Origin: a virus
Taxonomy: Duplodnaviria; Heunggongvirae; Uroviricota; Caudoviricetes
Length of the DNA: 37,522 nucleotides
Strand: one strand, 5' to 3'
Virus record (IMG/VR): IMGVR_UViG_3300029068_000003
Part shown: positions 4,043 to 37,522 of the stretch, one piece after another
How the letters are laid out: the number at the start of each line of letters is the position of its first letter
Position numbering within the stretch: the stretch's first letter is position 1
Program-made: the position numbers and the translations under genes
Notes under the pieces: generated by a model
The model's database searches: none
Seen by the model: the letters and a program-made list of their open reading frames with translations, nothing else
What the model was told of the DNA's origin: nothing

Positions 4043-5367
4043 TGCACTGGCACCTTCAGAGGGATCACCGGCACAAAGCCGGGATGCGTAATGGCATTAC
4101 GCCGGATAATGTCCGCGTCACGCGCCGCGTTATCAAACCAGGTCGCCGCCAGCACCAGCGCGGGTAAAACCTCATCCGGCGTGCGCTGAATGATCCGAGC
4201 AGACTGTTCAAGGCGCGTGTTGATATCCGCATTCAGATCTGCTTTCACCCGGCGCAGAGCCAGAAACAGCGCATCACTGGTTGTACGGGACAACTCCTTA
4301 TCAATTGCCGTATTCAGTGTGTCGCGAATGTCGGTCAGTTCTTCCCACGTTGGCAGGTCAACCGTGTTTTTTACCGCCGGTGCATTGTTCAGCACCGGAT
4401 GCGTGACGGCAGGCCAGCCGGAGCTCTGCGCGGGTGTTGTTGACTGCCCCACTGCGGCATTCTGCATCACCGCAGAAGTTGTTGGCGCAGGCAATCGGGT
4501 AACGGCATACGCCGCTTCGCTGATTGCAGTCGTACGAAGGGTGCTGGCAACCATGTTACGCTGCTGCGTCGCTGTGGCGGTGGTTTTACTGTCCGTTTTC
4601 CAGACGCCGCGCGGTTGCAAATCGCTGCCGAGGCTGACACAAGAAAGCGTTTTGATCATGGTGACCAGGTCGCTGGCGTTACCATAAAGGCGTTTCCCGG
4701 TACGCCACATTTTCTGCACCTGCTCAACGAAATTTTTGCCTGACGATGGCGGCGGCAGAAGTACCGAGATATCCCCCTGCAACAGCCTGGCGGCATCCGA
4801 TACGGCAGAATCCACCACTTTCATCGCATCAGAAACATACCCCAGCATTATGCTGGCATTACCGATAACGTCGTTCTGCACGAAATCCGCCACACCATCG
4901 ATACTGAAACCGCTGAAGCTGTCACTGATGCAGTCATCCAGTGCAGAACAGGATGACATCAGCGTCTGCGCCGTCGCCGCACCTGATGTGGGGTAAGAGA
5001 GTTCTCCTGCTTCGACAAACTTCAGGTCAAAGCGGACAATACGCCCTTCACTTTTCGATGTGCTGACCCGAACTTCCCCGTCAACACAGACTTTCAGCTC
5101 ACCATATGTCGGGTGGACAAGCGTGCCGGGACCTGGTTTATTCAGCGCTTCAATCAGGCGATCGCGCTGGTCAAAGCAGTCATCTCCCACCACATAAGCC
5201 GTGATGGACGGGCGAAAAGTGATTTTCCCCAGGTCTTCGGTATAGGGTTTGTCGCGGTTCGGGTATTCATGTGTTTCCACACGGCGACCGGTTCCCGCAC
5301 TTTCTTCTTCAACCTTAAACGGCACGCCGCGAAATGACGCGTCCTGAAGCCTGTCTTTCCACGTCAT
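4039..5367 (-). CDS. DNA circulation protein (Mu gp43/N-like)
   Basis: 442 aa ORF beginning MTWKDRLQDASFRGVPFKVEE, N-terminus typical of the Mu N family; located after the tape measure as in Mu-like tails. Confidence 0.6.
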   Translation of the reverse strand: MTWKDRLQDASFRGVPFKVEEESAGTGRRVETHEYPNRDKPYTEDLGKITFRPSITAYVVGDDCFDQRDRLIEALNKPGPGTLVHPTYGELKVCVDGEVRVSTSKSEGRIVRFDLKFVEAGELSYPTSGAATAQTLMSSCSALDDCISDSFSGFSIDGVADFVQNDVIGNASIMLGYVSDAMKVVDSAVSDAARLLQGDISVLLPPPSSGKNFVEQVQKMWRTGKRLYGNASDLVTMIKTLSCVSLGSDLQPRGVWKTDSKTTATATQQRNMVASTLRTTAISEAAYAVTRLPAPTTSAVMQNAAVGQSTTPAQSSGWPAVTHPVLNNAPAVKNTVDLPTWEELTDIRDTLNTAIDKELSRTTSDALFLALRRVKADLNADINTRLEQSARIIQRTPDEVLPALVLAATWFDNAARDADIIRRNAITHPGFVPVIPLKVPVQ

Positions 5368-5382
5368 ATATACTCCGAAAAT

Positions 5383-5408
5383 TAAAAAGCCACCTATTAG
5401 AAGGTGGC
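5383..5408 (-). terminator. Intrinsic terminator downstream of the moron gene
   Basis: Perfect 7-bp stem gccacct/aggtggc (5389-5395 / 5402-5408) with 6-nt loop, followed on the minus strand by a T-run (plus-strand A-run 5384-5388). Confidence 0.55.
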
Positions 5409-5428
5409 CTTGTAATGAATTTTATTAA

Positions 5429-5959
5429 TTAGCGAGTCAGAAACAACGAATCTTTATACTTTTGCTGTTGTTCATTTAAATACTTAGCTGTTTCATCGCT
5501 GGCAAATGGAAATATTACCGTATTTTTAGGCATGGTAATTTCTTTTTTGTCCAGCGTCAGAGTAAACATAGGAACATACTGAGCAGAGTAACGCACCGCA
5601 GAAACGAGCTCTAGTTTAGACTCTTCAATAACACTTAAATTATCTAGGCTAACTTTCTCTTCATCTTTTTTCTTTGACGCATTTAAAGTTTTTATTACTT
5701 TATTTAATTTCTCCTGAAAATCCTCCTTAAAGTTTTCAGGATTGCCGTCGACAACAAGAATCTGTTCACCCTGATTATCTGGAAAAATAATCTTTGCACT
5801 TATCAATTTATTTTCTTTATAAACATCACCAAGTTTTATGGCTCCTCCAGATAACTGAATAATATGTTCATCTTTAAAGGAGATGTTGCCAGAGATTATG
5901 AGAGATGAAAAAATAGCCGCTGCTCCAAGAATTACACTTGCTGTGATATAGCCTTTCAT
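5429..5959 (-). CDS. Moron-encoded secreted or membrane-anchored protein, function unknown
   Basis: 176 aa ORF, ATG start; N-terminal hydrophobic segment (ILGAAAIFSSLIISG); strongly AT-rich relative to flanking tail genes; own terminator; inserted between DNA circulation and tape measure genes. Confidence 0.55.
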   Translation of the reverse strand: MKGYITASVILGAAAIFSSLIISGNISFKDEHIIQLSGGAIKLGDVYKENKLISAKIIFPDNQGEQILVVDGNPENFKEDFQEKLNKVIKTLNASKKKDEEKVSLDNLSVIEESKLELVSAVRYSAQYVPMFTLTLDKKEITMPKNTVIFPFASDETAKYLNEQQQKYKDSLFLTR

Positions 5960-6050
5960 TTTTCGCCTATTAACATTTTTCTAAATGTGCATTAATTCTA
6001 TCACTCTATTTATGACTTACAACCAGCAATACCTGTGAGGGGAATCCTGG

Positions 6051-17962: not shown

Positions 17963-18313
17963 TTACTTCAGCCGTTCACGGGCCGTCTTCGCCTTATGAC
18001 ACGGCCAGCACAGGCTCTGCAGATTACTGTCTGCATCGGTGCCGCCATGCGCTTTAGGGATGATGTGATCAACGGTTTTCGCCTCACGCACCACACCAGC
18101 ACGCAGGCACAACTGGCACAGGCCTTTGTCACGCTTCAGGACACGTTCACGGATAACATCCCATTTCGAACCATAACCGCGCTGGTGTCGGGACTGGCCT
18201 GGCTTGTATTGCTTCCAGCCTTCGCTTTTGTGGCTTTCGCAGTAGCCTGACGGGTCAGTAGTGGTATGGCGGCAGCCGCGAACACGGCAGGCTTTTGGGG
18301 TTCGTGGTGGCAT
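17963..18313 (-). CDS. HNH endonuclease (terminase-associated)
   Basis: Cys/His-rich C-terminus (CQLCLRAG...VDHIIPKAHGGTDADSNLQSLCWPCHKAK); ORF-track start is GTG at 18376; in-frame ATG at 18313 has AAGAGGA upstream, so start set there. Confidence 0.75.
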   Translation of the reverse strand: MPPRTPKACRVRGCRHTTTDPSGYCESHKSEGWKQYKPGQSRHQRGYGSKWDVIRERVLKRDKGLCQLCLRAGVVREAKTVDHIIPKAHGGTDADSNLQSLCWPCHKAKTARERLK

Positions 18314-18463
18314 TGCATAATCCTCTTGGGTGGTTCGCGTGCGATACGTGGCATCCTTCTCAGAATCGAATCGCACTCCACTCCGGTTTTGCCATAAACG
18401 ATCTTTTATGCTTCGCTGGATGTAGTTGATAGTTGTTGAAACTCAATGAACAGGAGTTCACAA

Positions 18464-18799
18464 ATGAATAGTTATGAATGGGAATGGCTTTTAAACAAAG
18501 ATGACACCCTATGCTTTTTCCCCGTAGGCCATTCTGTAGAAGGTAATTACAAAATTCACTTTGAGTTGAGCGGTAGTTGTAACCTTAGAGTCTCAGATGC
18601 TGAATGGCATGGTAAACCTGTACTGCTGTTCGAATACTTCGATGAAGATGATGACCGCCCTGCAATAATCGAAATATTAGAAACAACCACTACAACTGTG
18701 GAGGCGATGATCGCACATCTGAATAGTATCGATAGTATTTACCATGAACCGATTTACAAAGCGGTTTACGAGTGGGCCGTAAAGTTTTTCTATCGATGA
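18464..18799 (+). CDS. Hypothetical acidic protein (cassette gene 1)
   Basis: AT-rich plus-strand ORF opposite to the flanking late genes; AGGAG 7 nt upstream of ATG 18464 (track ATG 18446 lacks an SD); acidic tract EYFDEDDDRP; no recognisable domain. Confidence 0.5.
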   Translation: MNSYEWEWLLNKDDTLCFFPVGHSVEGNYKIHFELSGSCNLRVSDAEWHGKPVLLFEYFDEDDDRPAIIEILETTTTTVEAMIAHLNSIDSIYHEPIYKAVYEWAVKFFYR

Positions 18800-18842
18800 T
18801 ACTTCGTTATCTTGCTGGCATTCACAATACCTTTACATACTA

Positions 18843-19469
18843 ATGACATGCCAGCACAATACTGTCACTTACAACCGTTCGGATTACCTAGAGAAAAGTA
18901 TGATTCAGGATTTACTGATCGAAGCAATTAGTCACGATAGGATGCATAAAAAGTTAAATGAACTGAATTGCTACTTCTACAATCGCAAACATGAAACTCA
19001 AATACGTGATGAGTTAGTTGTTATTCTCAATCAAATCAGCACACTAACTGCTTTAAGTGAGCATCCAAAACTCGGTATCGGCGCTGTTGACATATCACTT
19101 TATAACCAGTCGATATTAACGTCTGAACATAATGGCAATGTTGCAACCATCGAGATCAAACACCATTACCCAAAGGATTTACTTTATCGGCAAGTTCAAG
19201 AAGACATCATTTTCGATATTTCAAGAGTAATAGTTTCACCAACTACACATTTTATCCATATAATCCAGCAAAGAACTAGGATTAATACTCCTTCTTTTGG
19301 CCAAGTGAAATTCCTTGAACGTGATGCAAGTGATATCAGCACTTATGTGCAATGCCTTGAAGAGCTAAGTTCCTTCCCCAGTATCTTTCATAAAAAAAGT
19401 ATATGTATTGAGGTACTTGGTGAAATTATGTCGACATATACCTTTAACGTATATTCATTTGACAACTGA
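18843..19469 (+). CDS. Hypothetical protein (cassette gene 2)
   Basis: 208 aa AT-rich ORF co-oriented with gene 1; alternative in-frame ATG at 18900; no recognisable domain. Confidence 0.45.
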   Translation: MTCQHNTVTYNRSDYLEKSMIQDLLIEAISHDRMHKKLNELNCYFYNRKHETQIRDELVVILNQISTLTALSEHPKLGIGAVDISLYNQSILTSEHNGNVATIEIKHHYPKDLLYRQVQEDIIFDISRVIVSPTTHFIHIIQQRTRINTPSFGQVKFLERDASDISTYVQCLEELSSFPSIFHKKSICIEVLGEIMSTYTFNVYSFDN

Positions 19470-19490
19470 TTAATTTGACAATTTTATTGC

Positions 19491-19748
19491 TTAATGGTTA
19501 GTTCTCTCTGCATCTATTTTACGAATATCAGCTTTATCCCGATTGCAGTTAGCCAGTGCAGACAACAGACTCACATTCAGCTCCAGGCTGGCACCATAAG
19601 TCAGAGGATTTGGTATGAACGGTACAGGTGTTTCAGAAGTCAGACTAGTCGGTAATGTTGTAGCCGGAGTGCTCACGTAAACTGTCCGCGTACTTCCGCA
19701 ACCGCTCAGCAGCGGCAGCAGGCACAAGGCGTGCAGCACAACCATCAT
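19491..19748 (-). CDS. o-spanin (Rz1-like outer-membrane lipoprotein)
   Basis: In the +1 frame overlapping the 3' part of the Rz-like gene; starts MMVVLHALCLLPLLSGCGS with a lipobox (LSGC); Pro/Thr-rich. Confidence 0.5.
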   Translation of the reverse strand: MMVVLHALCLLPLLSGCGSTRTVYVSTPATTLPTSLTSETPVPFIPNPLTYGASLELNVSLLSALANCNRDKADIRKIDAERTNH

Positions 19749-20025
19749 CCGCAACAGCCACTTTGATATCTTTCTGGGTTCTCTGTGACTCCAGTGCGAT
19801 CTGCTGTTTTGCATGCTGGTTAACCTCTATAACTGTATTGACGATTTGCAGTGATTGCAGGACGTTACGGGTAATGGCTGTTGCAGATTCAGCATTTTGT
19901 ACAGCCTCATCAGCACGTTTCTTTTCGTGCTGATATTTGCTGTAGTAGTGGTTGGCAGACCAGATGAAAGAACCGATGACAGTAAAGAAGAATGCAGCGA
20001 TAACCAGCTTATAGCTCAACTTCAT
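19645..20025 (-). CDS. i-spanin (Rz-like)
   Basis: 126 aa ORF with ATG start, N-terminal TM segment then charged coiled-coil-like region; directly downstream of the endolysin. Confidence 0.6.
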   Translation of the reverse strand: MKLSYKLVIAAFFFTVIGSFIWSANHYYSKYQHEKKRADEAVQNAESATAITRNVLQSLQIVNTVIEVNQHAKQQIALESQRTQKDIKVAVADDGCAARLVPAAAAERLRKYADSLREHSGYNITD

Positions 20026-21145: not shown

Positions 21146-21667
21146 ATGATGAACAAATTAGCACGCTTATTATTAACAGCAAGCTCAATTGCACCTGTTT
21201 GCGCAACTCTATTTTTTATTGGATATGTAAAAGATACGGTTTGGCTGATGCAATATAGCTTATGCGTTGGCATAGCAAGTTGGTTATTAGCAATAGGCCT
21301 GATTCAATATGCTGAGAAACAACTTGAACCTCTGACAAAAAATATTAGTTCAGTTTCTCCCGCTAACAAAGAAGTAACTAATTATTTCTTAAGCTATTTA
21401 TTCCCTCTCCTAGGAACAGACTCTATTGCTGAAAATAAAGCATATGCGTTATTCTTTTATTTGTCATTGTTATTTTACATCAGCTTTTCCGAGAACTATA
21501 ACTTTAACCCAGTATTGTCACTTATCGGTTATAAATTTTACGAAGCTGAAGATGACACCGGCGTAGGTTTTGTATTGATTTCTAAATCAGTCATTACTGA
21601 TATTAAAGATATCAAATTTACAGTTATTCAATTAACAGACTACACATTTCTACATGTTAAAGGATAA
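21146..21667 (+). CDS. Small integral membrane protein with about 4 TM helices (KwaA-like architecture, unverified)
   Basis: 173 aa AT-rich ORF with hydrophobic segments (LLLTASSIAPVCATLFFIGYV; WLMQYSLCVGIASWLLAIGLIQYA; YALFFYLSLLFYISF); opposite strand to flanking Q and lysis genes. Confidence 0.55.
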   Translation: MMNKLARLLLTASSIAPVCATLFFIGYVKDTVWLMQYSLCVGIASWLLAIGLIQYAEKQLEPLTKNISSVSPANKEVTNYFLSYLFPLLGTDSIAENKAYALFFYLSLLFYISFSENYNFNPVLSLIGYKFYEAEDDTGVGFVLISKSVITDIKDIKFTVIQLTDYTFLHVKG

Positions 21668-21672
21668 TAACC

Positions 21673-22557
21673 ATGGCACTTTTTGCAGTAATAGATAATA
21701 CAATTGCAACGAGAATTGTTAGAGTCGAACTTGATGCAACAGCAAGTACTTCTGTTACGGCCATTTTCCAACAACAGCGTCAATATTTTGAAAGTCATCA
21801 TAACAATATGATACCATTCTATGCCGGTTATACACCAAAACATAGTGAGTGTTTTGAAATACAAAACTTTACTGATTCTGCACGCCTGATTGACGCAGTC
21901 AATAGGCCTACCGCCGTGCCTGTCTGGGATCCCAGCCAAATTGATATTGGTTATATTAAAGCATTATTTGTTGGTGTTGACGCGCCAGCAAACCCCAATA
22001 TTATTGCGCTACAAACCTTCAACAAAAAACAAATCTTAGATACCTCAAAATCATTCTTTGGAAAGCTTTTTGCAAGCAAAACTACCTTTAGTAAAGCTAA
22101 TAGCATCGGTTTTAATGTTGATGATAAACTAGTTGCAATAATTATCAATGATACAATACGATTTAAGAGTTTCTTTAATCTAAGAAGCATTTTTGACATG
22201 TCGTCCTATTTTTCTGCTGCTACTGACCAAGAACTTAATGCATTTAGTCAACTTAGTGTATTTTCTACTCCCCAAGGTTTTGATCTAAAATCCGTTGCAG
22301 ATACAGTGATAAGAAATAAAGTAACACTAATAAATCAGACTGGGATGCTAACACCCCAAAATATGTCAAAGTTTAAATCCGAAGCTGCTAAAGTCAATTT
22401 CCCCTTACAAACCATAATAGTTGGCGGTGTTGAGAAAATTGTCATGCCTTCATCAAAAAAAGAAATAAAAGCCCTTCTTGACTTTCTTGAGGAAGACATT
22501 TGGATTTCAGGGATAAGTGGAAGACGCTTTAAATCGAATTCAAAGCGCCCAATATAA
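21673..22557 (+). CDS. Soluble partner protein of the membrane protein (KwaB-like size, unverified)
   Basis: 294 aa AT-rich ORF starting 5 nt after the upstream stop, with an SD overlapping the upstream gene end (operon); no recognisable catalytic motif. Confidence 0.55.
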   Translation: MALFAVIDNTIATRIVRVELDATASTSVTAIFQQQRQYFESHHNNMIPFYAGYTPKHSECFEIQNFTDSARLIDAVNRPTAVPVWDPSQIDIGYIKALFVGVDAPANPNIIALQTFNKKQILDTSKSFFGKLFASKTTFSKANSIGFNVDDKLVAIIINDTIRFKSFFNLRSIFDMSSYFSAATDQELNAFSQLSVFSTPQGFDLKSVADTVIRNKVTLINQTGMLTPQNMSKFKSEAAKVNFPLQTIIVGGVEKIVMPSSKKEIKALLDFLEEDIWISGISGRRFKSNSKRPI

Positions 22558-27912: not shown

Positions 27913-28517
27913 GCGTTAGTTTCTCCACAGTCACGACACGCCACGGCGCCCGGAGCTGCACACTCGCGGGCGTCATTACTTTCTGAAATGCAAAAGATTT
28001 TGTAGACCAGTGCTGCATGCTCCTGCAGCTTCGAAATTGAGAGATACAGCTCGTCGTTAATTGCTGTCTTCTCATGCGGTTCCACCACACCGTCTTCGAT
28101 TGCCGAACGAATCTGTCTGGAATAACTGCCAATCTGTTCAATGACTTCCAGCAGGCGCTGGTTAATATCGGCGTTGTCCACATCCTCGACGTCAGGAAGA
28201 GACACAAAGACGCCATTTGCAGACTGCGCCACAGCGTCAGCAATGAAGTGAGTTCCACCAGCACGTTGCAAAATCATTGCCCATCCCAGCGGGAAAATCT
28301 GATCGCCATCGGCACGAAGGCGGTTAAATAATGCGTTTTCTGTTACATCCAGCCAGTCAGCTGCTTCAGCGTAACCACCCGGCAACGCTGCGATAGTTTT
28401 TCTGACAGCTTTCACGTACCACTCAGGCTGTTTTTCTACTTTCCAGTGATGCTTACCCACGGTTAGCCTCATCGTTCTGTGGTTTCTGTTAATCGATTTA
28501 TCCATTAGATTTTTCAT
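27909..28517 (-). CDS. CII-like regulatory protein (CP76 family-like), start uncertain
   Basis: Segment ...[36 protein letters not shown]... resembles the CP76 CII-like family as recalled; ORF-track start is GTG at 28574 (overlaps cro by 77 nt); in-frame ATGs at 28517 and 28505. Confidence 0.4.
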
Positions 28518-28698
28518 AAAGCTCAGGTTTAAATGGCAACCGTCCGCAAGTTCTATATGCAGCTTCTGCTGCACGTCCTTTTGGAATTAACTGGCCCGGA
28601 CGGTTTCGCCACTGATAAACGGCTTCAGTTGTTATGCCGAAAAAAGCAGCAACTTTCTCAATACTGCCGAAGTAGCTTTCGATATCGTCAGTTGTCAT
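28498..28698 (-). CDS. Cro-like repressor
   Basis: 66 aa HTH protein (...VAAFFGITTEAVYQWRN...), divergent from the cI-like gene, GGAGGG Shine-Dalgarno. Confidence 0.65.
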   Translation of the reverse strand: MTTDDIESYFGSIEKVAAFFGITTEAVYQWRNRPGQLIPKGRAAEAAYRTCGRLPFKPELYEKSNG

Positions 28699-28795
28699 AC
28701 GCCCTCCAAACTAAGTTTTATTAGATGCTAATTACAAATCTATCTTTGGTCAATAAAAACTAAGATTACTTAGCAATTCAAGAAATGGTGCTCCT
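28699..28795. promoter_or_regulatory. Immunity-region operator/promoter (OR, divergent cro and cI promoters)
   Basis: 97-bp AT-rich gap between divergent cro and cI; palindrome AAACTAAGTTT (28708-28718) and CTAAG-ATTA-CTTAG (28760-28773). Confidence 0.55.
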
Positions 28796-29422
28796 ATGGA
28801 AACGGTTGGTCAGCGTATAAAAGCTCTGAGAAGAGTTACCGGAACGTCCCAGAAAGAATTGGGTAAATTTTGTGGAGTAAGCGACGTTGCTGTGGGGTAC
28901 TGGGAGAAAGACATCAATACCCCTGGTGGGGAGGCACTTTCGAAATTAGCGAAGTTCTTCAATACGTCAATAGATTACATTCTTTATGGTGCTGAGTTTG
29001 AAGGCAAACTCGTCACAAACATGCGCAGAGTTCCTGTAATATCGTGGGTTCAGGCTGGGCAGTTTACTGAGTGCAGGGCAGCAGAAGTGTTTAGTGAAGT
29101 GGACAAGTGGGTAGATACATCATTAAAGATTGGTGATAACTCATTTGCATTAGAGGTTAAAGGTGACTCCATGACTAACCCTAATGGCCTCCCAACAATA
29201 CCAGAAGGCGCAACAGTGATTGTAGATCCAGATGCAGAACCTCGTCATGGAAAAATAGTCATCGCTCGACTTGATGGAACAAACGAAGCTACAGTAAAAA
29301 AATTAGTCATCGATGGCCCTCAAAAGTTTTTAGTGCCATTAAATCCTCGGTATCCCAACATCCCTATCAATGGTAATTGCCTTATCATTGGTGTAGTCAA
29401 AGGAGTTCAATACGAACTCTAA
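28796..29422 (+). CDS. CI-type repressor (XRE HTH + S24 LexA-like autopeptidase)
   Basis: 208 aa; N-terminal HTH (QKELGKFCGVSDVAVGYWEKD); C-terminal Ser/Lys dyad context (VKGDSM ... ATVKKLV). Confidence 0.8.
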   Translation: METVGQRIKALRRVTGTSQKELGKFCGVSDVAVGYWEKDINTPGGEALSKLAKFFNTSIDYILYGAEFEGKLVTNMRRVPVISWVQAGQFTECRAAEVFSEVDKWVDTSLKIGDNSFALEVKGDSMTNPNGLPTIPEGATVIVDPDAEPRHGKIVIARLDGTNEATVKKLVIDGPQKFLVPLNPRYPNIPINGNCLIIGVVKGVQYEL

Positions 29423-29669
29423 GACCTCTCTTCTCTAACTAAGGCACCGAACTAAGAAAAGTTTGGTGTTTTCTCTTGCCATAACAACTAAGTTAAGTTA
29501 GATTTTATATCAAAGATAACGAACAGGCAGGACGCCCACGAAGTAGCCGCCTGGGGCATATGAAGTCCAGGATGATTCGTTAGCAACAAAAAAGCGCCCT
29601 ACAGGACGCTTAGCTCTTTAACAATCTGGTCCCCATCAACAAGTAACTGATAACTTGAGGAGGTGTGAA
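29423..29669 (+). promoter_or_regulatory. Candidate OL/pL region
   Basis: Repeated ACTAAG half-sites, including the same AACTAAGTT palindrome (29486-29494) found in OR; GAGGAGG Shine-Dalgarno for the downstream ORF. Confidence 0.4.
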
Positions 29670-29876
29670 ATGCACAAAACAGAACCAAAAATCGTCGCGC
29701 CCGGATACACAAATGAGGAAATTTACGAGTGGATGGCAAAGAAGCTGGCAGCTATAAACCAGCTTCGTGAAGTGCTGTCTTATCGACAGGAAACAATAGA
29801 CTCCTTAAAAAAACTGGATCAGGAAATCACGGTTTTATCACAGGATGTTACTTTAGATATTGTGCAGACAAATTAG
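29670..29876 (+). CDS. Small early-left protein, function unknown
   Basis: ORF-track start is TTG at 29655; ATG at 29670 lies 6 nt after GAGGAGG; 68 aa. Confidence 0.45.
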   Translation: MHKTEPKIVAPGYTNEEIYEWMAKKLAAINQLREVLSYRQETIDSLKKLDQEITVLSQDVTLDIVQTN

Positions 29877-30282
29877 GATCCCATTCATTTTCGTCAAAAT
29901 CATCAAAGTGATGAATTTGTGATCTCCAGTCTCGATAATCTAAAAATTTCTGGGCGGTTACGCTTATTTTATCAAGTGTGAGTTCATCCTGAATTGAAAG
30001 AAGAAGTTCATCAAATTTCATCTCATTAATCTGTTTTGGCATCCAGTGATGCTTCATCAGAATAAGGTGAACCAGAGCCTTTTTCCCATTCAACTGATTA
30101 TAGGGAGTGCCGAATTTCTTCCGGTGCTCATGTAAGACAAGGTCCAGAAGAGTAAGTAATGTTGCCCTTGATTCAACTTTGCTTATTTCGACTGATGACA
30201 CTACCCCACTGATTTCAATGCCCCGATACTTTCCAACATTTTCACAGTGGGATTTGTACAGCGTATAGATATTACCGGACAT
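29848..30282 (-). CDS. Hypothetical protein encoded antisense to the early-left operon (moron candidate)
   Basis: 144 aa AT-rich ORF, ATG start, convergent with and overlapping the 3' end of 29670..29876; direct repeats upstream; no recognisable domain. Confidence 0.45.
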   Translation of the reverse strand: MSGNIYTLYKSHCENVGKYRGIEISGVVSSVEISKVESRATLLTLLDLVLHEHRKKFGTPYNQLNGKKALVHLILMKHHWMPKQINEMKFDELLLSIQDELTLDKISVTAQKFLDYRDWRSQIHHFDDFDENEWDPNLSAQYLK

Positions 30283-32668: not shown

Positions 32669-32722
32669 CTGCGAAATTAACTAGTGAAATAGTTTTGTAG
32701 CAAAAGAAATGAGGTTATCAAA

Positions 32723-32968
32723 ATGCTTCAAATGCTGACACTTGAGGAATGGGCTGCGGAAAAATTTAGGAGTAACCCTCCAAGTGTGTCCACATTGCGT
32801 CGTTATGCTAAGCAGAATTTATTTTGTCCACCGGCAATGAAACAAGGTCGACTATGGCGAGTACGTGAGGACGCAGAGTTAGTTGGAGAATTAGTTACTC
32901 CTGTCATTAAGAAAAGTGATTCTATTATTCTACAAAGGATTTTAAGTAATGGCAGCCAGACCACGTAA
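32723..32968 (+). CDS. Excisionase (Xis)
   Basis: 81 aa ORF immediately upstream of and overlapping int; GAGGT Shine-Dalgarno. Confidence 0.6.
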   Translation: MLQMLTLEEWAAEKFRSNPPSVSTLRRYAKQNLFCPPAMKQGRLWRVREDAELVGELVTPVIKKSDSIILQRILSNGSQTT

Positions 32969-34076
32969 GAATAATGTTTCAGTCCCGAACTTGTATCCGC
33001 TCTATAGCAGAAAAGTAAATAAAGTTTATTGGCGATATAAGCATCCAGTGACCGGGAAGTTTCATTCTTTGGGCACAAACGAAGCTGAAGCCATTGCTAT
33101 TGCCACTGAGGCCAATACACGCCTAGCTGAGCAAAGAACCCGGCAGATTCTAGCTATCAGTGACAGGATCGCAACCAGCAAAGGAAAAGCAATCACAACG
33201 TCAACCTGGTTAGATCGCTATCAAGCAATCCAGGAAGACAGACTGAAAAGTGGCGATATAAAGCTCAACACTTATAAACAGAAAGCCAAACCAGTATCCT
33301 TGCTCAGGGAACGAGCAGGACTGAAGTTGATATCAGCCGTTGATGTCAGAGATATAGCACAATTACTTGATGAGTATATCTCTGCTGGACAGCCTAGAAT
33401 GGCCCAGGTCGTAAGGTCTGTATTGATCGATGTGTTTAAAGAAGCACAGCATTACGGCGAAGTTCCACCAGGGTATAACCCTGCTCTTGCAACGAAGCAA
33501 CCCAGAAGAAAAATTACCCGACAACGGTTAAGTCTTGAAGAATGGCAAAAAATTTTTGATATCGCAGATGCCAGTCATCGTTATATGGGGAATGCCATGC
33601 TGTTAGCACTGGTTACTGGCCAGAGGTTAGGTGATATCTCGCGTATGAAATTTAGTGATATTTGGGATGATCATCTCCATGTTATTCAGGAAAAGACCGG
33701 GAGCAAAATCGCAATCCCGCTTTCCCTTCGTCTCAACGCGATTAGCTGGAGTTTACGCGATGTAGTAGTCCGCTGCCGTGATTATGCAGTCAGTCCATAC
33801 TTAGTGCATTTTTTCCGTTCAACCTCACAGGCAAAACGTGGTGCACAGGTTAAATCCAATACATTGACGATGAATTTTAGTAAAGCACGGGATTTAGCAG
33901 GGATTGACTGGGGGGATGGCTCACCTGCCACATTCCATGAGCAAAGGTCTTTATCTGAACGCCTGTACAAAGAACAAGGGATAGATACTAGGAAGCTACT
34001 TGGGCATAAAACACAACAGCAAACTGATCGTTATGATGATGATCGTGGGAAAAACTGGATGAAGATAACATGTTAA
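32949..34076 (+). CDS. Tyrosine integrase (lambda Int family)
   Basis: 375 aa; C-terminal catalytic region with ...HEQRSLSERLYKEQGIDTRKLLGHKTQQQTDRYDD...; next to the xis-like gene and the attachment-site side of the prophage. Confidence 0.85.
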   Translation: MAARPRKNNVSVPNLYPLYSRKVNKVYWRYKHPVTGKFHSLGTNEAEAIAIATEANTRLAEQRTRQILAISDRIATSKGKAITTSTWLDRYQAIQEDRLKSGDIKLNTYKQKAKPVSLLRERAGLKLISAVDVRDIAQLLDEYISAGQPRMAQVVRSVLIDVFKEAQHYGEVPPGYNPALATKQPRRKITRQRLSLEEWQKIFDIADASHRYMGNAMLLALVTGQRLGDISRMKFSDIWDDHLHVIQEKTGSKIAIPLSLRLNAISWSLRDVVVRCRDYAVSPYLVHFFRSTSQAKRGAQVKSNTLTMNFSKARDLAGIDWGDGSPATFHEQRSLSERLYKEQGIDTRKLLGHKTQQQTDRYDDDRGKNWMKITC

Positions 34077-34394
34077 AATTGTGGGAATGAGCAAATATTA
34101 GTTACGCATGTAAAAAGCACACAATGTAATTAATAAGTCTACTTAGTATAATGATTGGATGTTTTTTTCATAATTGACATTAATTACCCCACAAATTGCA
34201 GAGTTAATGCCGAATCAATGTAGAGTATAAAAACAATATTTTTATAGATTTACTGTTTCATCAGTAAACCATTCCCTTGGTGAAAGCCTAGTATCGTACT
34301 TTTATCACATTTTATTTCATCGACTCTCGTAAATAATTTGTTATATGCCATAATGCCTCCTTAACAAAAAAACCACAACCTCATGGAGAGTTTC

Positions 34395-36722
34395 ATGGCA
34401 TTTAACCTTACCCGTATGACAGTTTATGCTCTTCTTTGCGCTTTAGAGGAAGACCTCCGTTCAATAGTTGTAAGTTACATCTTGAAGCCAGAAGATAAAG
34501 AAATAAAACTACCAAACGAACTTTTAGAAAAAGCTAAAAGAAGACTAGAAAAAGACCTCGGCACTGTGATGGATGGTATAGAATCAATTGATTTAATAGA
34601 ATATTTTGACCTTGGAGATACTTACCAAATCATAAATTCCAATGGAAAGGAAATTCCCGATCACATATATAAATTCATAAAATCCATTACCAAAGATTTG
34701 GACTCTCTCGTTCTAATAAGAAACAGAGTTATGCATATTCGACCATTAGACGTAGAAGATTACCCTACGCTTGCATCTATTTGCGAAAAGATAATAAAAT
34801 CCGAAACAAACTGTTGGTCTAACCTTACAGAAATATCCCAAAAAATAAATAACAACCCCAGCTTCTTGTTATCGATGGAAATTAAAAATTATGATGAAGA
34901 AAAGCAAAATCATAATTTACCCCTCCCTGATTTTGATGAAACAGGATTGATAGGAAGACAAAGTCATGTCCAAAAAGTAAAACAACTTTGCTATGGAGCG
35001 TTCCCTGTCATTTCCATAGTTGGAGAAGGTGGCGTAGGAAAAACTGCGCTGGCACTTAAAGTTGCTTATGAAATACTCGAGGATGAAGATAATCCTTTTG
35101 ATGCAATTGTTTGGGTTTCATCAAAAACCACACAAATAACTGTAAATGAAATAAAAGAAATCAAAGACGCTATATCCGACTCCATAGGGGTTATACAGGA
35201 AATATCAAATCAAATAATTGGAACGAGTGTAAAACAATCGAATTTTGAAGAGATAATCGAATATCTTACGACATTTAAAATCGCTCTTTTCATTGATAAT
35301 CTCGAGACAATCCTTGATGATAACATACGCGAATTTGTTGGTGCTTTACCTCAAGGAAGTAAAATAATAATAACATCAAGAATCGGATTGGGTGCATTTG
35401 AGTATCCAGTGAGATTGCAAGGTATCGATGAATCATATGCTTCACAATTAATGAGAATATTGGCAAAAATAAGAGGTGTTGACTCCTTAGAGAAAATAGA
35501 AGAAAAAATAATGAGGAGTTATGTCAATCGTATGTCGCGTAACCCAAGTTACATTAAGTGGTTCGTAAGTTCGGTTCAAACGGGATTGAGCCCTGAAGCA
35601 GTTCTTCAAAATTCAAATATGTTTCTTGATTTTTGCATGTCAAATGTTTATGAGTATTTATCTACAAATGCCAGGACACTTACTGCAGCCCTACAGTGTG
35701 CTCCCGGTTTAAAAGACGTACCTGAGCTATCTTATTTAACTGGATTTGACTCCCTTCAAACTCATCAATCCATTCAAGAATTGATGGCTACAAATATGTT
35801 GTCACAATCATCTAAAACGAAAGGTGCAAGTGTTAAAACCACTTACCAATTATCTGAATTAGCAAGGTTATATTTAGGCAAGAATCATAAACCGACCCAG
35901 ACTTATCAAAAAAGCATTCATGAAAAGCGGAACAAATTAAATGCACTTTTTGAAAAACAGCTGATGTCGAGAAGTGAAGATAAATATAATCCTCTGAATA
36001 TAAAATTCAGGGATAAATCTGATCGAGTTATTGTGAAAATGCTTAGAGACTCTCAGTCATTTATAAGAAATGGTCATCACGATAAAGCATTTGAATTACT
36101 CACTGAATCACACAAATTATCCCCAGACTATTTTGAAGTTGCTCGCGTGATGGCCTACTTACATCAACAGAATGGTGCAATTAGTGATGCCCGTGAGCAA
36201 TACGAATTGGCTATTGTATTATCACCTGACACACCTCAATTACACTACTGGTTCGCAAAATTCTTACTGCGTGAAGAGGATAATGTCGATGACGCTTTAA
36301 CTCAAATACAGCTAGCACATAATTTAGACCCCACATCTATTGAAGTATCTCTATCTTTGTCAAGAGTCTATATGTTCCAACATAGATTTGATGAGGCTGA
36401 AAATGTTCTTTCACTCATAGAATTAGATATTAAAAACTCTAGTGAACATAATATAAAAATATTTAAAGATACACACATTCAAATATCTTACCGGAGAGCT
36501 GATAATTTAGCTCAAAAAGGTGAGTATTCTGAAGCAATGTCATATCTAGAGAAAATGCTTGAGCAATTTGAGGAACTACCCGATTATTACAAAGATGTGC
36601 ATATTAGAAAAAAATTATCGAAATGCGAATTTCTATTGAAGACAATTTCTCGTAGTGCAGATCAATTAATCCTTCACAGAGCTGATAATTTTAGAGAATG
36701 GCTACAAAAAGAATGTGCTTAA
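34395..36722 (+). CDS. HEPN - P-loop NTPase (STAND/NB-ARC-like) - TPR-like repeat protein; candidate antiviral STAND (Avs-like) or abortive-infection effector
   Basis: N-terminal RNxxxH HEPN motif (LVLIRNRVMHIRP); Walker A GEGGVGKTALA; Walker B-like IALFIDNLE; helical repeat C-terminus; AT-rich; own terminator; start taken at ATG 34395 (GGAGAG upstream) rather than 34383. Confidence 0.65.
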   Translation: MAFNLTRMTVYALLCALEEDLRSIVVSYILKPEDKEIKLPNELLEKAKRRLEKDLGTVMDGIESIDLIEYFDLGDTYQIINSNGKEIPDHIYKFIKSITKDLDSLVLIRNRVMHIRPLDVEDYPTLASICEKIIKSETNCWSNLTEISQKINNNPSFLLSMEIKNYDEEKQNHNLPLPDFDETGLIGRQSHVQKVKQLCYGAFPVISIVGEGGVGKTALALKVAYEILEDEDNPFDAIVWVSSKTTQITVNEIKEIKDAISDSIGVIQEISNQIIGTSVKQSNFEEIIEYLTTFKIALFIDNLETILDDNIREFVGALPQGSKIIITSRIGLGAFEYPVRLQGIDESYASQLMRILAKIRGVDSLEKIEEKIMRSYVNRMSRNPSYIKWFVSSVQTGLSPEAVLQNSNMFLDFCMSNVYEYLSTNARTLTAALQCAPGLKDVPELSYLTGFDSLQTHQSIQELMATNMLSQSSKTKGASVKTTYQLSELARLYLGKNHKPTQTYQKSIHEKRNKLNALFEKQLMSRSEDKYNPLNIKFRDKSDRVIVKMLRDSQSFIRNGHHDKAFELLTESHKLSPDYFEVARVMAYLHQQNGAISDAREQYELAIVLSPDTPQLHYWFAKFLLREEDNVDDALTQIQLAHNLDPTSIEVSLSLSRVYMFQHRFDEAENVLSLIELDIKNSSEHNIKIFKDTHIQISYRRADNLAQKGEYSEAMSYLEKMLEQFEELPDYYKDVHIRKKLSKCEFLLKTISRSADQLILHRADNFREWLQKECA

Positions 36723-36750
36723 TTTTATTTTCATAAAACCAAATACTAAA

Positions 36751-36779
36751 GCAAGCCCTTTATTAGGGTTTGCTTTTAT
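36751..36779 (+). terminator. Intrinsic terminator after the HEPN-NTPase gene
   Basis: Stem gcaagccct/agggtttgc (36751-36759 / 36765-36773, one G-U pair) followed by TTTTAT. Confidence 0.5.
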
Positions 36780-37073
36780 AGCTATCGAACAATAATCCTG
36801 ATTATATCCATACAGTACAATCCACCTCATTTTCTGATATTTATTTATGTGTAAATTACTATAATTTTATAACCATAGTATAGCTGAATAAGAATTTACA
36901 AAATCAACAGCACAGCTCTGACTAAACAACCAACTTTTGTAGATATTATAACATAAGGTCTCTATCGTTATATGGTTCAACCTAGAACCGCTCGGTAGCC
37001 TCTTGACTCACCAAACCTCCAAGGGGTTTTGATAACTTATTTTGATAAAATTTTGATAACCGTTAGCAACCTA

Positions 37074-37104
37074 ACAAAAAACAGCGGGAGCGTTACACTC
37101 CCGT
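37074..37104 (-). terminator. Intrinsic terminator of icd
   Basis: Stem cgggag/ctcccg (37085-37090 / 37098-37103) followed by a T-run on the minus strand (plus 37075-37081 A-run), about 25 nt downstream of the icd stop. Confidence 0.6.
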
Positions 37105-37128
37105 TAATAAATTTAACAAACTACGGCA

Positions 37129-37522
37129 TTACATGTTCTTTATGATCGCGTCACCAAACTCGCTACATTTCAGCAGCTTAGCGCCTTCCATCAGACGTTC
37201 GAAGTCATAGGTTACGGTCTTGGCATTGATCGCGCCTTCCATACCTTTAACAATCAGGTCTGCGGCTTCAGTCCAGCCCATATGGCGTAACATCATCTCA
37301 GCGGAGAGAATAATAGAGCCAGGGTTTACTTTGTCCTGACCGGCGTATTTCGGCGCAGTACCGTGGGTGGCTTCAAACAGGGCGCATTCGTCACCGATGT
37401 TTGCTCCAGGGGCGATACCGATACCGCCAACCTGCGCTGCCAGAGCGTCAGAAATGTAGTCACCGTTCAGGTTCATACAGGCGATAACATCATATTCAGC
37501 CGGACGCAGCAGGATCTGTTGC
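37129..37522 (-). CDS. icd: Isocitrate dehydrogenase, C-terminal portion (partial; continues beyond window end)
   Basis: Translation ...[92 protein letters not shown] matches the E. coli Icd C-terminus as recalled; frame stays open to the window edge. Confidence 0.85.

What the first reader, a model, noticed from the sequence alone, without database searches (positions are those of the whole stretch)
34395..36722. HEPN-NTPase-TPR gene carried as cargo between the prophage integrase and the icd attachment site
A 775-779 aa protein combines an N-terminal HEPN RNase motif (RNxxxH in LVLIRNRVMHIRP), a central P-loop NTPase (Walker A GEGGVGKT, Walker B-like hhhhDNLE) and a C-terminal TPR-like helical array. 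That is the sensor-switch-effector layout of antiviral STAND (Avs/NLR-like) proteins, here with a predicted RNase effector. The gene is much more AT-rich than the phage genes, has its own terminator, and sits in the int-att junction, the position where prophage e14 carries the Lit abortive-infection protease. It is the strongest candidate in the window for a poorly described single-gene defence system.
Basis: partly seen in the sequence, partly recalled or inferred. Interest (0 to 1): 0.85.

Follow-up and report, generated by a model that had tools for sequence, protein, structure and literature searches.

The report
Prophage-borne HEPN–STAND–TPR defence candidate
An E. coli prophage carries, between its integrase and its attachment site, one 775-residue gene joining a predicted RNA-cutting HEPN domain, an NLR-type ATP switch and a TPR sensor; it is very probably an antiviral receptor of a type already predicted by computer but, as far as I could find, never tested.

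Summary
Window 34395-36722 (+) encodes a 775-aa protein. It has an N-terminal all-helical domain with an invariant RNRVMH (Rx4H) motif, an NB-ARC STAND NTPase with invariant Walker A and B motifs, and a C-terminal TPR array.

The gene lies in a 3-kb, 34%-GC cargo block that replaces e14's ymfD-ymfE-lit between conserved intE and the icd 3' end. An 86%-identical orthologue sits after the tail-fibre genes of Klebsiella P2-like prophages. Others sit beside integrases in Vibrio and Pseudomonas islands.

The wider family (648 clusters) is HEPN-NB-ARC-TPR, mostly with an extra C-terminal cold-shock domain. That fusion was listed in the 2013 HEPN census. This exact protein (WP_000885267.1) is a seed in a 2026 survey of defence STANDs. 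I found no experimental test.

Verdict: a new, untested member of the Avs/NLR-like kind, probably working by trigger-induced oligomerisation that activates an RNase. Interest is about 0.4.

The parts
34395..36722 (+). HEPN-STAND-TPR gene (775 aa plus stop); an alternative upstream ATG at 34383 would give 779 aa
   Evidence: ORF list; RefSeq CDS WP_000885267.1; homologues start at MAFNLTRM; GGAG at 34385-34388 lies 6 nt before the 34395 ATG
34395..34874 (+). N-terminal all-helical domain (aa 1-160), predicted Swt1/Abi2-type HEPN RNase effector
34719..34736 (+). RNRVMH = Rx4H HEPN catalytic motif (R109...H114)
   Evidence: Invariant in 44 family members; R and H invariant in 54 superfamily members at 30-40% identity
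34914..34958 (+). Strongly conserved linker NLPLPDFDETGLIGR (aa 174-188) leading into the NTPase
   Evidence: N174-R188 nearly all invariant; low pLDDT in the model; function not known
34959..35429 (+). NB-ARC nucleotide-binding domain (aa 189-345) with Walker A GEGGVGKT (35022-35045), Walker B ALFIDNLE (35283-35306) and an IIITSR sensor-1-like motif (35364-35381)
   Evidence: Pfam NB-ARC E 6.8e-9, above the gathering cut-off; motifs invariant; most conserved region, 73% mean pairwise identity
35430..35894 (+). Helical domain plus winged-helix domain of the STAND module (aa 346-500), ending in invariant K496/H498/P500 (KNHKP, a possible MHD-like histidine)
   Evidence: Secondary structure of the model: helices 346-465, beta-hairpin 469-486, helix 488-497. 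Foldseek matches over NBD-HD-WHD to 6mfv, ZAR1, NRC and CED-4. Invariant residues. The MHD equivalence is my inference
36015..36440 (+). TPR array (aa 541-682), presumed sensor
   Evidence: Pfam TPR_19/TPR_14/TPR_2 above cut-offs; consensus-TPR structures hit at E 1.4e-18; pLDDT above 90
36441..36719 (+). Variable helical C-terminal extension (aa 683-775); in most relatives a cold-shock domain follows this region, but it is absent here
   Evidence: Least conserved region, 36% mean pairwise identity; one TPR_2 hit at 703-729; alignment to the 921-aa P0128 stops at aa 744 and the CSD lies beyond
36748..36776 (+). Hairpin after the stop codon, a possible intrinsic terminator
   Evidence: RNA fold gives a 12-bp stem, dG -17.3 kcal/mol; not called by the consensus scan because the T-tail is weak
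34053..37010 (.). Cargo block with no counterpart in e14, GC 0.336; it is flanked by conserved xisE/intE (to 34052) and by the icd 3' end plus 119 bp (from 37011)
   Evidence: blastn against K-12: 32705-34052 is 87.6% identical to intE/xisE, 37011-37522 is 93.6% identical to icd 3' plus downstream, and nothing matches in between. K-12 has ymfD-ymfE-lit there. GC
32949..34076 (+). intE-type tyrosine integrase immediately upstream (context)
   Evidence: ORF; RefSeq annotation intE
37129..37522 (-). 3' part of icd (isocitrate dehydrogenase), which holds the attachment site of e14-type prophages (context)
   Evidence: ORF; RefSeq annotation; K-12 annotates e14 as starting inside icd

Best explanation
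This is a single-gene, prophage-carried antiviral STAND (Avs/NLR-like) receptor with a HEPN RNase as its effector. Proposed mechanism: (1) In the resting cell the protein is a monomer, auto-inhibited in the ADP-bound state of its NB-ARC module. (2) During infection by another phage, a phage product, most likely a protein, is bound by the C-terminal TPR array and the variable helical tail. (3) Binding releases the NB-ARC switch and ATP-dependent oligomerisation follows. (4) Oligomerisation brings the N-terminal HEPN domains together. HEPN RNases need two domains to form one composite Rx4-6H active site, so this step switches the RNase on. (5) Cleavage of cellular and/or phage RNA stops translation and aborts the infection, protecting the lysogen population and the resident prophage. 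What is shown here: the domain architecture, the invariance of the catalytic and nucleotide-binding residues, the cargo position, and the spread among unrelated mobile elements. What is inferred: steps 1-5, the RNase activity, the defence phenotype and the nature of the trigger.
Confidence: 0.7

Rival explanations
1. It is a STAND-based defence or conflict protein, but the N-domain is not the killing enzyme. The HEPN-like bundle would act as an RNA-binding, sensing or adaptor domain, as proposed for the inactive HEPN of eukaryotic Swt1, and the output would be something else, such as recruiting a host factor or sequestering the trigger.
For: The Pfam family it resembles is named after an HEPN thought to be inactive and RNA-sensing (PMC3710099). 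The sequence score is sub-threshold. Foldseek was negative. Most relatives add a C-terminal nucleic-acid-binding CSD, so RNA binding is a theme of the family.
Against: The catalytic R and H of Rx4H, and the N after R, are invariant over 54 sequences at 30-40% identity. Inactive HEPNs typically lose them, and PMC3710099 calls the STAND-TPR-S1 fusions 'mostly active'. No other effector domain is present in the protein, and no conserved partner gene exists.
Confidence: 0.12
2. It is a non-immune STAND regulator of the MalT/GutR/AfsR kind, as JGI's automatic name 'LuxR family glucitol operon transcriptional activator' suggests, controlling prophage or host genes.
For: Some sources name homologues that way. 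Bacterial STAND-TPR proteins include transcription activators (Lee et al. 2026 text). A weak NCBIfam match to AfsR and FxSxx_TPR exists.
Against: No HTH/LuxR/SARP DNA-binding domain was detected at any threshold. The N-terminus is a HEPN-like bundle instead. The gene travels alone between unrelated prophages and islands without a target operon. All NCBIfam matches are far below their cut-offs.
Confidence: 0.04
3. It is selfish cargo whose main role is phage-against-phage or element-against-host conflict. For example, it could be an addiction or exclusion module that kills cells when the prophage is lost or when the carrier's own lytic cycle is disturbed, and not a general anti-phage receptor.
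For: It is found almost only on integrative elements, next to integrases or in phage cargo slots. It is a toxic-type effector with no neighbouring antitoxin.
Against: There is no partner or antitoxin gene. The tripartite sensor-switch-effector layout matches ligand-triggered receptors. The same gene occurs in unrelated carriers (lambdoid e14-like, P2-like, non-phage islands, and a lone chromosomal copy), which argues against dependence on one carrier's biology. In practice this rival overlaps with prophage-encoded defence.
Confidence: 0.08

Closest known systems
HEPN(Swt1-like)+STAND-ATPase+TPR+S1/CSD fusions catalogued by Anantharaman et al. 2013 (examples Npun_F6454, MED222_16016, Desac_1927; PMC3710099)
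   Same: Same order of domains and the same HEPN subfamily. I recovered this superfamily independently: 648 clusters share the N-domain, and of 54 sampled, 54 have NB-ARC, 50 have TPR and 35 have CSD. The window protein aligns over aa 1-744 at 40% identity with a CSD-bearing member.
   Different: The window protein belongs to a shorter branch (about 775 aa) that lacks the C-terminal cold-shock domain. The 2013 entry is one line in a table: no function, trigger or context was studied. I could not fetch the named examples to confirm orthology.
Avs / AVAST antiviral STAND proteins (Avs1-4 of Gao et al. 2022; Avs5-24 of later work including Lee et al. 2026)
   Same: Single-gene N-effector / STAND NTPase / C-terminal helical-repeat sensor layout; carried in mobile defence contexts; this accession is in the seed list of the 2026 survey. 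It probably works the same way, by trigger binding, oligomerisation and effector activation.
   Different: No PADLOC AVAST model matches. The NTPase is closest to the NB-ARC/AP-ATPase type. The effector is a HEPN RNase, whereas the characterised Avs proteins I saw described use Cap4/Mrr DNases, SIR2 and similar. The tail after the NTPase is short: 372 aa, below that study's 400-aa sensor filter. The trigger is unknown.
Rst_TIR-NLR of P4 satellite hotspots (Rousset et al. 2022, PMC9122126)
   Same: NB-ARC plus C-terminal TPR with an N-terminal enzymatic effector; a single gene carried in a phage or satellite cargo hotspot; experimentally anti-phage.
   Different: The effector is TIR (NAD+-directed), not HEPN. 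Sequence relationship of the chassis was not tested here, because only a truncated sequence was available.
AbiF/AbiD (Abi_2) HEPN abortive-infection RNases
   Different: AbiF/AbiD are stand-alone HEPN proteins; the solved AbiF dimer is bound to a ncRNA. Here the HEPN is fused to, and presumably controlled by, a STAND switch.
Lit protease of prophage e14
   Same: Occupies the same slot (between intE and the icd attachment site) of a closely related prophage backbone. Lit is a prophage-borne abortive-infection gene that shuts down translation.
   Different: The protein is unrelated: Lit is a metalloprotease that cleaves EF-Tu. e14 carries ymfD-ymfE-lit there, and this prophage carries a single HEPN-STAND-TPR gene.
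RNase L (vertebrate) - functional analogy only
   Same: A repeat-domain sensor controls dimerisation of a HEPN-family (KEN) RNase that degrades RNA to block virus replication (HEPN classification in PMC3710099).
   Different: RNase L has no STAND NTPase, is activated by the small molecule 2-5A, and is not homologous outside the HEPN fold.

Membership tests
STAND NTPase, NB-ARC/AP-ATPase type | P-loop NTPase with Walker A GxxGxGK[ST] and Walker B hhhhD[DN] | tested here: met
   GEGGVGKT (aa 210-217) and ALFIDNLE (aa 297-304) are present and invariant
STAND NTPase, NB-ARC/AP-ATPase type | Match to the Pfam NB-ARC model above the curated cut-off | tested here: met
   35.8 bits against a cut-off of 23.5, E 6.8e-9, aa 194-333; 54/54 distant relatives also match
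STAND NTPase, NB-ARC/AP-ATPase type | NBD followed by a helical domain and a winged-helix domain, then superstructure-forming repeats | tested here: met
   Model secondary structure; Foldseek matches to 6mfv (STAND-TPR), ZAR1, NRC2/3/4, Sr35, CED-4 and SAMD9 at E 1e-7 to 1e-4; TPRs. The NBD part of the model has low confidence (pLDDT 31-77)
STAND NTPase, NB-ARC/AP-ATPase type | Ligand-induced, nucleotide-dependent oligomerisation | not testable with these tools
   Needs purified protein and its trigger
HEPN superfamily (Swt1-like / Abi2 clade) | Rx4-6H motif, commonly R[NHQD]xxxH | tested here: met
   RNRVMH at aa 109-114; R, N and H invariant in 44 sequences; R and H invariant in 54 sequences at 30-40% identity
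HEPN superfamily (Swt1-like / Abi2 clade) | All-alpha helical-bundle HEPN fold | tested here: inconclusive
HEPN superfamily (Swt1-like / Abi2 clade) | Match to Pfam HEPN_Swt1 (PF18731) above the curated cut-off | tested here: not met
   The window protein scores 14.2-14.6 bits against a cut-off of 27.5. It is nevertheless the top or second family and recurs in 18/26 orthologues (best E 9.7e-5) and 13/54 relatives (best E 7.6e-5)
HEPN superfamily (Swt1-like / Abi2 clade) | Metal-independent endoribonuclease activity | not testable with these tools
   Biochemistry needed
Avs/AVAST types 1-5 as modelled in PADLOC-DB v2 | Match to an AVAST protein model | tested here: not met
   Only PDC-M34B (N-domain) and a weak mad8 hit (E 1.7e-4) were returned at E<=1
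Avs (antiviral STAND) in the broad functional sense | Effector / STAND / sensor in one polypeptide, in a defence or mobile-element context | tested here: met
   Architecture; cargo slots of two unrelated prophage types and integrase-flanked islands; Kiwa in the same prophage; listed as a seed in Lee et al. 2026
Avs (antiviral STAND) in the broad functional sense | Demonstrated protection against phage and activation by a phage-encoded trigger | not testable with these tools
   No report found in the held literature. Tables S5 and S6 of Lee et al. 2026 are not held, so I cannot exclude that it was tested there
MalT/GutR/AfsR-type STAND transcription regulators | DNA-binding domain (LuxR-type HTH or SARP) | tested here: not met
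   No such domain in Pfam or NCBIfam scans at E<=1

The most novel reading that the evidence does not exclude
The HEPN-NB-ARC-TPR(-CSD) superfamily may be a nucleic-acid-linked branch of bacterial NLR-like immunity. In about two thirds of its members a C-terminal cold-shock (OB-fold) domain sits where other Avs proteins have only a protein-binding sensor. These receptors might therefore be triggered by, or directed to, phage RNA or ssDNA and not a phage protein, with an RNase as output. That would be a bacterial STAND analogue of RNA-sensing innate immunity. The CSD-less E. coli/Klebsiella prophage branch would be a derived form that swapped this input for its fast-evolving helical tail. No characterised Avs that I saw described senses nucleic acid or uses a HEPN RNase.
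Probability: 0.15. Interest if true: 0.7.

Novelty: new member of a known kind. Interest (0 to 1): 0.4.

Why it matters
If confirmed, this would add an RNase-armed receptor to the bacterial NLR-like (Avs) repertoire, whose characterised members mostly destroy DNA or NAD+. It would also give a compact 775-aa, E. coli-native model for asking how a STAND switch controls a HEPN RNase, which is the same fold used by Cas13, Csm6 and RNase L. The finding is a clean example of cargo-slot exchange. The same int-att slot carries Lit in e14 and this gene here, and the same gene is carried in the tail-fibre-adjacent slot of P2-like Klebsiella prophages. The practical value is as a well-justified candidate for a trigger screen. 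The conceptual surprise is limited, because the architecture and even this accession are already in computational catalogues.

Tried and rejected
1. Nucleotide and protein searches of 50,697 GenBank phage records found no homologue, so 'a common phage gene' is rejected. It is known from prophages and islands only (PHROG 24039, function unknown; one IMG/VR contig, which is a lower bound because only two peptide patterns were scanned).

2. Sequence searches of the PDB, with both the single sequence and the N-domain profile, gave only TPR hits or noise.

3. Foldseek of the N-domain against the PDB found nothing significant. I report this as evidence against the HEPN call and did not discard it.

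4. The 'HEPN-TPR' system pFR83 tested by Rousset et al. 2022 looked like a possible identity. Its sequence starts differently and shows no P-loop in the part held, so it is a different protein.

5. No paper mentions PDC-M34 or WP_000885267 in its main text. DefensePredictor's tested and predicted tables do not contain the accession.

6. Gao et al. 2022 and Brenes & Laub 2025 are not held in the library and could not be checked.

7. The consensus promoter scan found no sigma-70 site in the 318-bp upstream spacer, so the promoter is unresolved.

8. Housekeeping ATPase and transcription regulator readings are rejected. All such NCBIfam and Pfam matches are far below their cut-offs or cover only the P-loop or TPR, and there is no DNA-binding domain.

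9. My first blastn against 'L002.fa' mixed several loci held in one file. It was repeated on K-12 alone.

10. The CoCoNuT paper and Kaur et al. 2020 were checked for this architecture and nothing relevant was found.
Full report
OBSERVATION. The window contains an ORF at 34383-36722 on the + strand (779 aa). RefSeq annotates it from the second ATG (34395, 775 aa) as WP_000885267.1, 'tetratricopeptide repeat protein'. Homologues all start at MAFNLTRM, and GGAG lies 6 nt upstream of 34395, so I use the 775-aa numbering. The gene is 34.5% GC against 51% for the rest of the window. A stop-free run of this length at that composition is vanishingly unlikely by chance, and more than 1,040 homologues exist. 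The 'own terminator' is a 12-bp hairpin (dG -17.3 kcal/mol) 26 nt after the stop with a weak U-tail, and the consensus scan did not call it.

DOMAINS. Pfam places an NB-ARC domain at aa 194-333 above its curated cut-off, and several TPR families at aa 559-750. A full-length AlphaFold2 model (pLDDT 77, with the NTPase part poorly resolved) matches an archaeal STAND-TPR protein (6mfv), the plant resistosomes ZAR1, NRC and Sr35, CED-4 and SAMD9. In a 44-sequence alignment down to 51% identity, Walker A, Walker B, the TSR arginine and a KxHxP motif at the end of the winged-helix region are invariant.

The N-terminal 160 residues are the critical part of the claim. On its own the domain gives only a sub-threshold Pfam hit to HEPN_Swt1 (E 0.04-0.055, about 14.5 bits against a 27.5 cut-off). 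The same family is hit by 18 of 26 orthologues (best E 9.7e-5), and single orthologues hit Abi_2 and HEPN_RiboL-PSP. Thirteen of 54 much more distant relatives also hit HEPN_Swt1.

THE WIDER FAMILY. An exhaustive phmmer search with the N-domain found 648 clusters at 50% identity. In nearly all of them the domain is N-terminal in a protein of 780-1,050 aa. Of 54 sampled, all have NB-ARC, 50 have TPR_19 and 35 have a C-terminal cold-shock domain. The window protein aligns over aa 1-744 at 40% identity with a 921-aa CSD-bearing member, so it belongs to a shorter branch that lacks the CSD. Within the family the NTPase is the most conserved part (73% mean pairwise identity). HEPN and TPR are intermediate (51-54%), and the last 93 residues are the most variable (36%). 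Distant relatives (25-30% identity) occur on plasmids of Planococcus, Rhizobium and Acinetobacter.

CONTEXT. The gene occurs in 13 of 5,426 complete E. coli genomes, always in the order xisE-intE-gene-icd. Alignment with K-12 shows that 32705-34052 matches e14 xisE/intE (87.6%) and 37011-37522 matches the icd 3' end plus 119 bp (93.6%). The 2.96 kb in between (GC 0.336) has no e14 counterpart and stands where e14 has ymfD-ymfE-lit.

The 86%-identical Klebsiella orthologue lies in P2-like prophages directly after the tail-fibre genes. From my own knowledge, that is the position of the Z/fun cargo locus of P2. The V. parahaemolyticus orthologue lies between two integrases beside an RVT_1+SLATT_5 gene pair. 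The P. fragi orthologue lies next to an integrase at the edge of an island. The A. hydrophila copy is a lone insertion among housekeeping genes. No partner gene is conserved. The one IMG/VR contig recovered again shows a low-GC gene near a contig end. No record in the GenBank phage collection has a homologue. PHROGs has the family as phrog_24039, 'unknown function'. The same window prophage carries a complete Kiwa system in a second low-GC slot.

MECHANISM. The best-supported reading is an Avs/NLR-like receptor. The TPR array and variable tail bind a phage-derived trigger. The NB-ARC module exchanges nucleotide and oligomerises. The N-terminal HEPN domains are brought together to form composite Rx4H sites, since HEPN domains are typically dimeric RNases (PMC13092281). 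RNA cleavage then aborts the infection. The architecture, the residue invariance and the cargo context are shown here. Every dynamic step is inferred by analogy with characterised STAND receptors (Lee et al. 2026; Kaur et al. 2020) and HEPN RNases.

Three rivals were considered: a non-catalytic HEPN (0.12), a transcription regulator (0.04) and a carrier-specific addiction module (0.08). They are weakened by the invariant catalytic residues, by the absence of any DNA-binding domain, and by the variety of carriers.

COMPARISON WITH WHAT IS KNOWN. Anantharaman et al. [quoted passage not shown] They also mention bacterial N-terminal HEPN + STAND proteins with C-terminal cold-shock-like OB folds. 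That is the superfamily found here.

Lee et al. 2026 (bioRxiv 10.64898/2026.01.04.697583) list WP_000885267.1, NTPase 186-403, as seed 136 of 656 'known immune-related STANDs and additional candidates', and they count HEPN_Swt1 among effector domains. Their tested families were drawn from sensors of at least 400 aa after the NTPase. By their own coordinates this protein has 372 aa there. It was therefore probably not among them, but the tables that would settle this are not held.

Rousset et al. 2022 validated a TIR-NB-ARC-TPR protein from a P4 hotspot. Their 'HEPN-TPR' construct is a different protein. PADLOC's AVAST models do not match. I found no experimental work on this architecture. Two relevant papers, Gao 2022 and Brenes & Laub 2025, could not be read.

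VERDICT. It is a new, apparently untested member of a known kind (single-gene antiviral STAND receptors) with an effector type, HEPN RNase, that has been predicted but, to my knowledge, not characterised in this setting. The architecture and the accession are already in computational catalogues, and the mechanism is the expected one, so a specialist would not be surprised. Interest is 0.4. The most novel reading left open is that the superfamily, given its frequent cold-shock domain, links STAND immunity to nucleic-acid sensing (probability about 0.15).

Noticed in passing
window 21146-22557 (+): A complete Kiwa defence system: KwaA at 21146-21667 (PADLOC E 1.9e-83) and KwaB at 21673-22557 (PADLOC E 2.3e-150; Pfam KwaB E 1.9e-7). 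It lies in a low-GC (0.35-0.39) block between the lysis genes and the Q antiterminator, on the strand opposite to the phage late genes. It is a second defence cargo slot in the same prophage.
   Followed up: partly
L001 6016-8416 (E. coli RM10466, same prophage type): At the slot where the window has Kiwa, the otherwise near-identical RM10466 prophage carries different cargo: two hypothetical proteins plus an MBL-fold metallo-hydrolase (RefSeq annotation). This slot appears to be an exchange hotspot, and the trio may be another defence candidate.
   Followed up: no
L003-L006 12503-18125 (Klebsiella P2-like prophages): Right after the HEPN-STAND-TPR gene, the tail block (GpU, tape measure, GpE, tube, sheath) is on the opposite strand to the tail-fibre genes before it and to gpD/ogr after it. 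As I recall, in phage P2 this block is co-directional, so the cargo gene may sit at an inversion junction.
   Followed up: no
L007 4127-9615 (V. parahaemolyticus island): The Vibrio orthologue is preceded by a reverse transcriptase (RVT_1, 517 aa) plus a SLATT_5 protein, an integrase, and an unannotated 502-aa gene directly upstream with no Pfam hit. The RT-SLATT pair looks like a retron- or Abi-type defence module, and the 502-aa gene is unexplained.
   Followed up: no
window 5001-6000, 18001-20000, 28001-30000: Further dips in GC (0.41-0.46 against about 0.55 in the flanking phage genes) could mark additional morons. They were not examined.
   Followed up: no
window 34914-34958 (aa 174-188): The linker NLPLPDFDETGLIGR between HEPN and NTPase is almost completely invariant, even at 30-40% identity, and is more conserved than most of either domain, yet it is modelled with low confidence. 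It may be a hinge or an auto-inhibitory element. No known motif was matched.
   Followed up: no
window 34077-34394: The 318-bp AT-rich spacer upstream of the gene has no sigma-70 consensus promoter by the scan. How the gene is transcribed in the lysogen is open: read-through from int, a non-consensus promoter, or a silenced promoter.
   Followed up: partly
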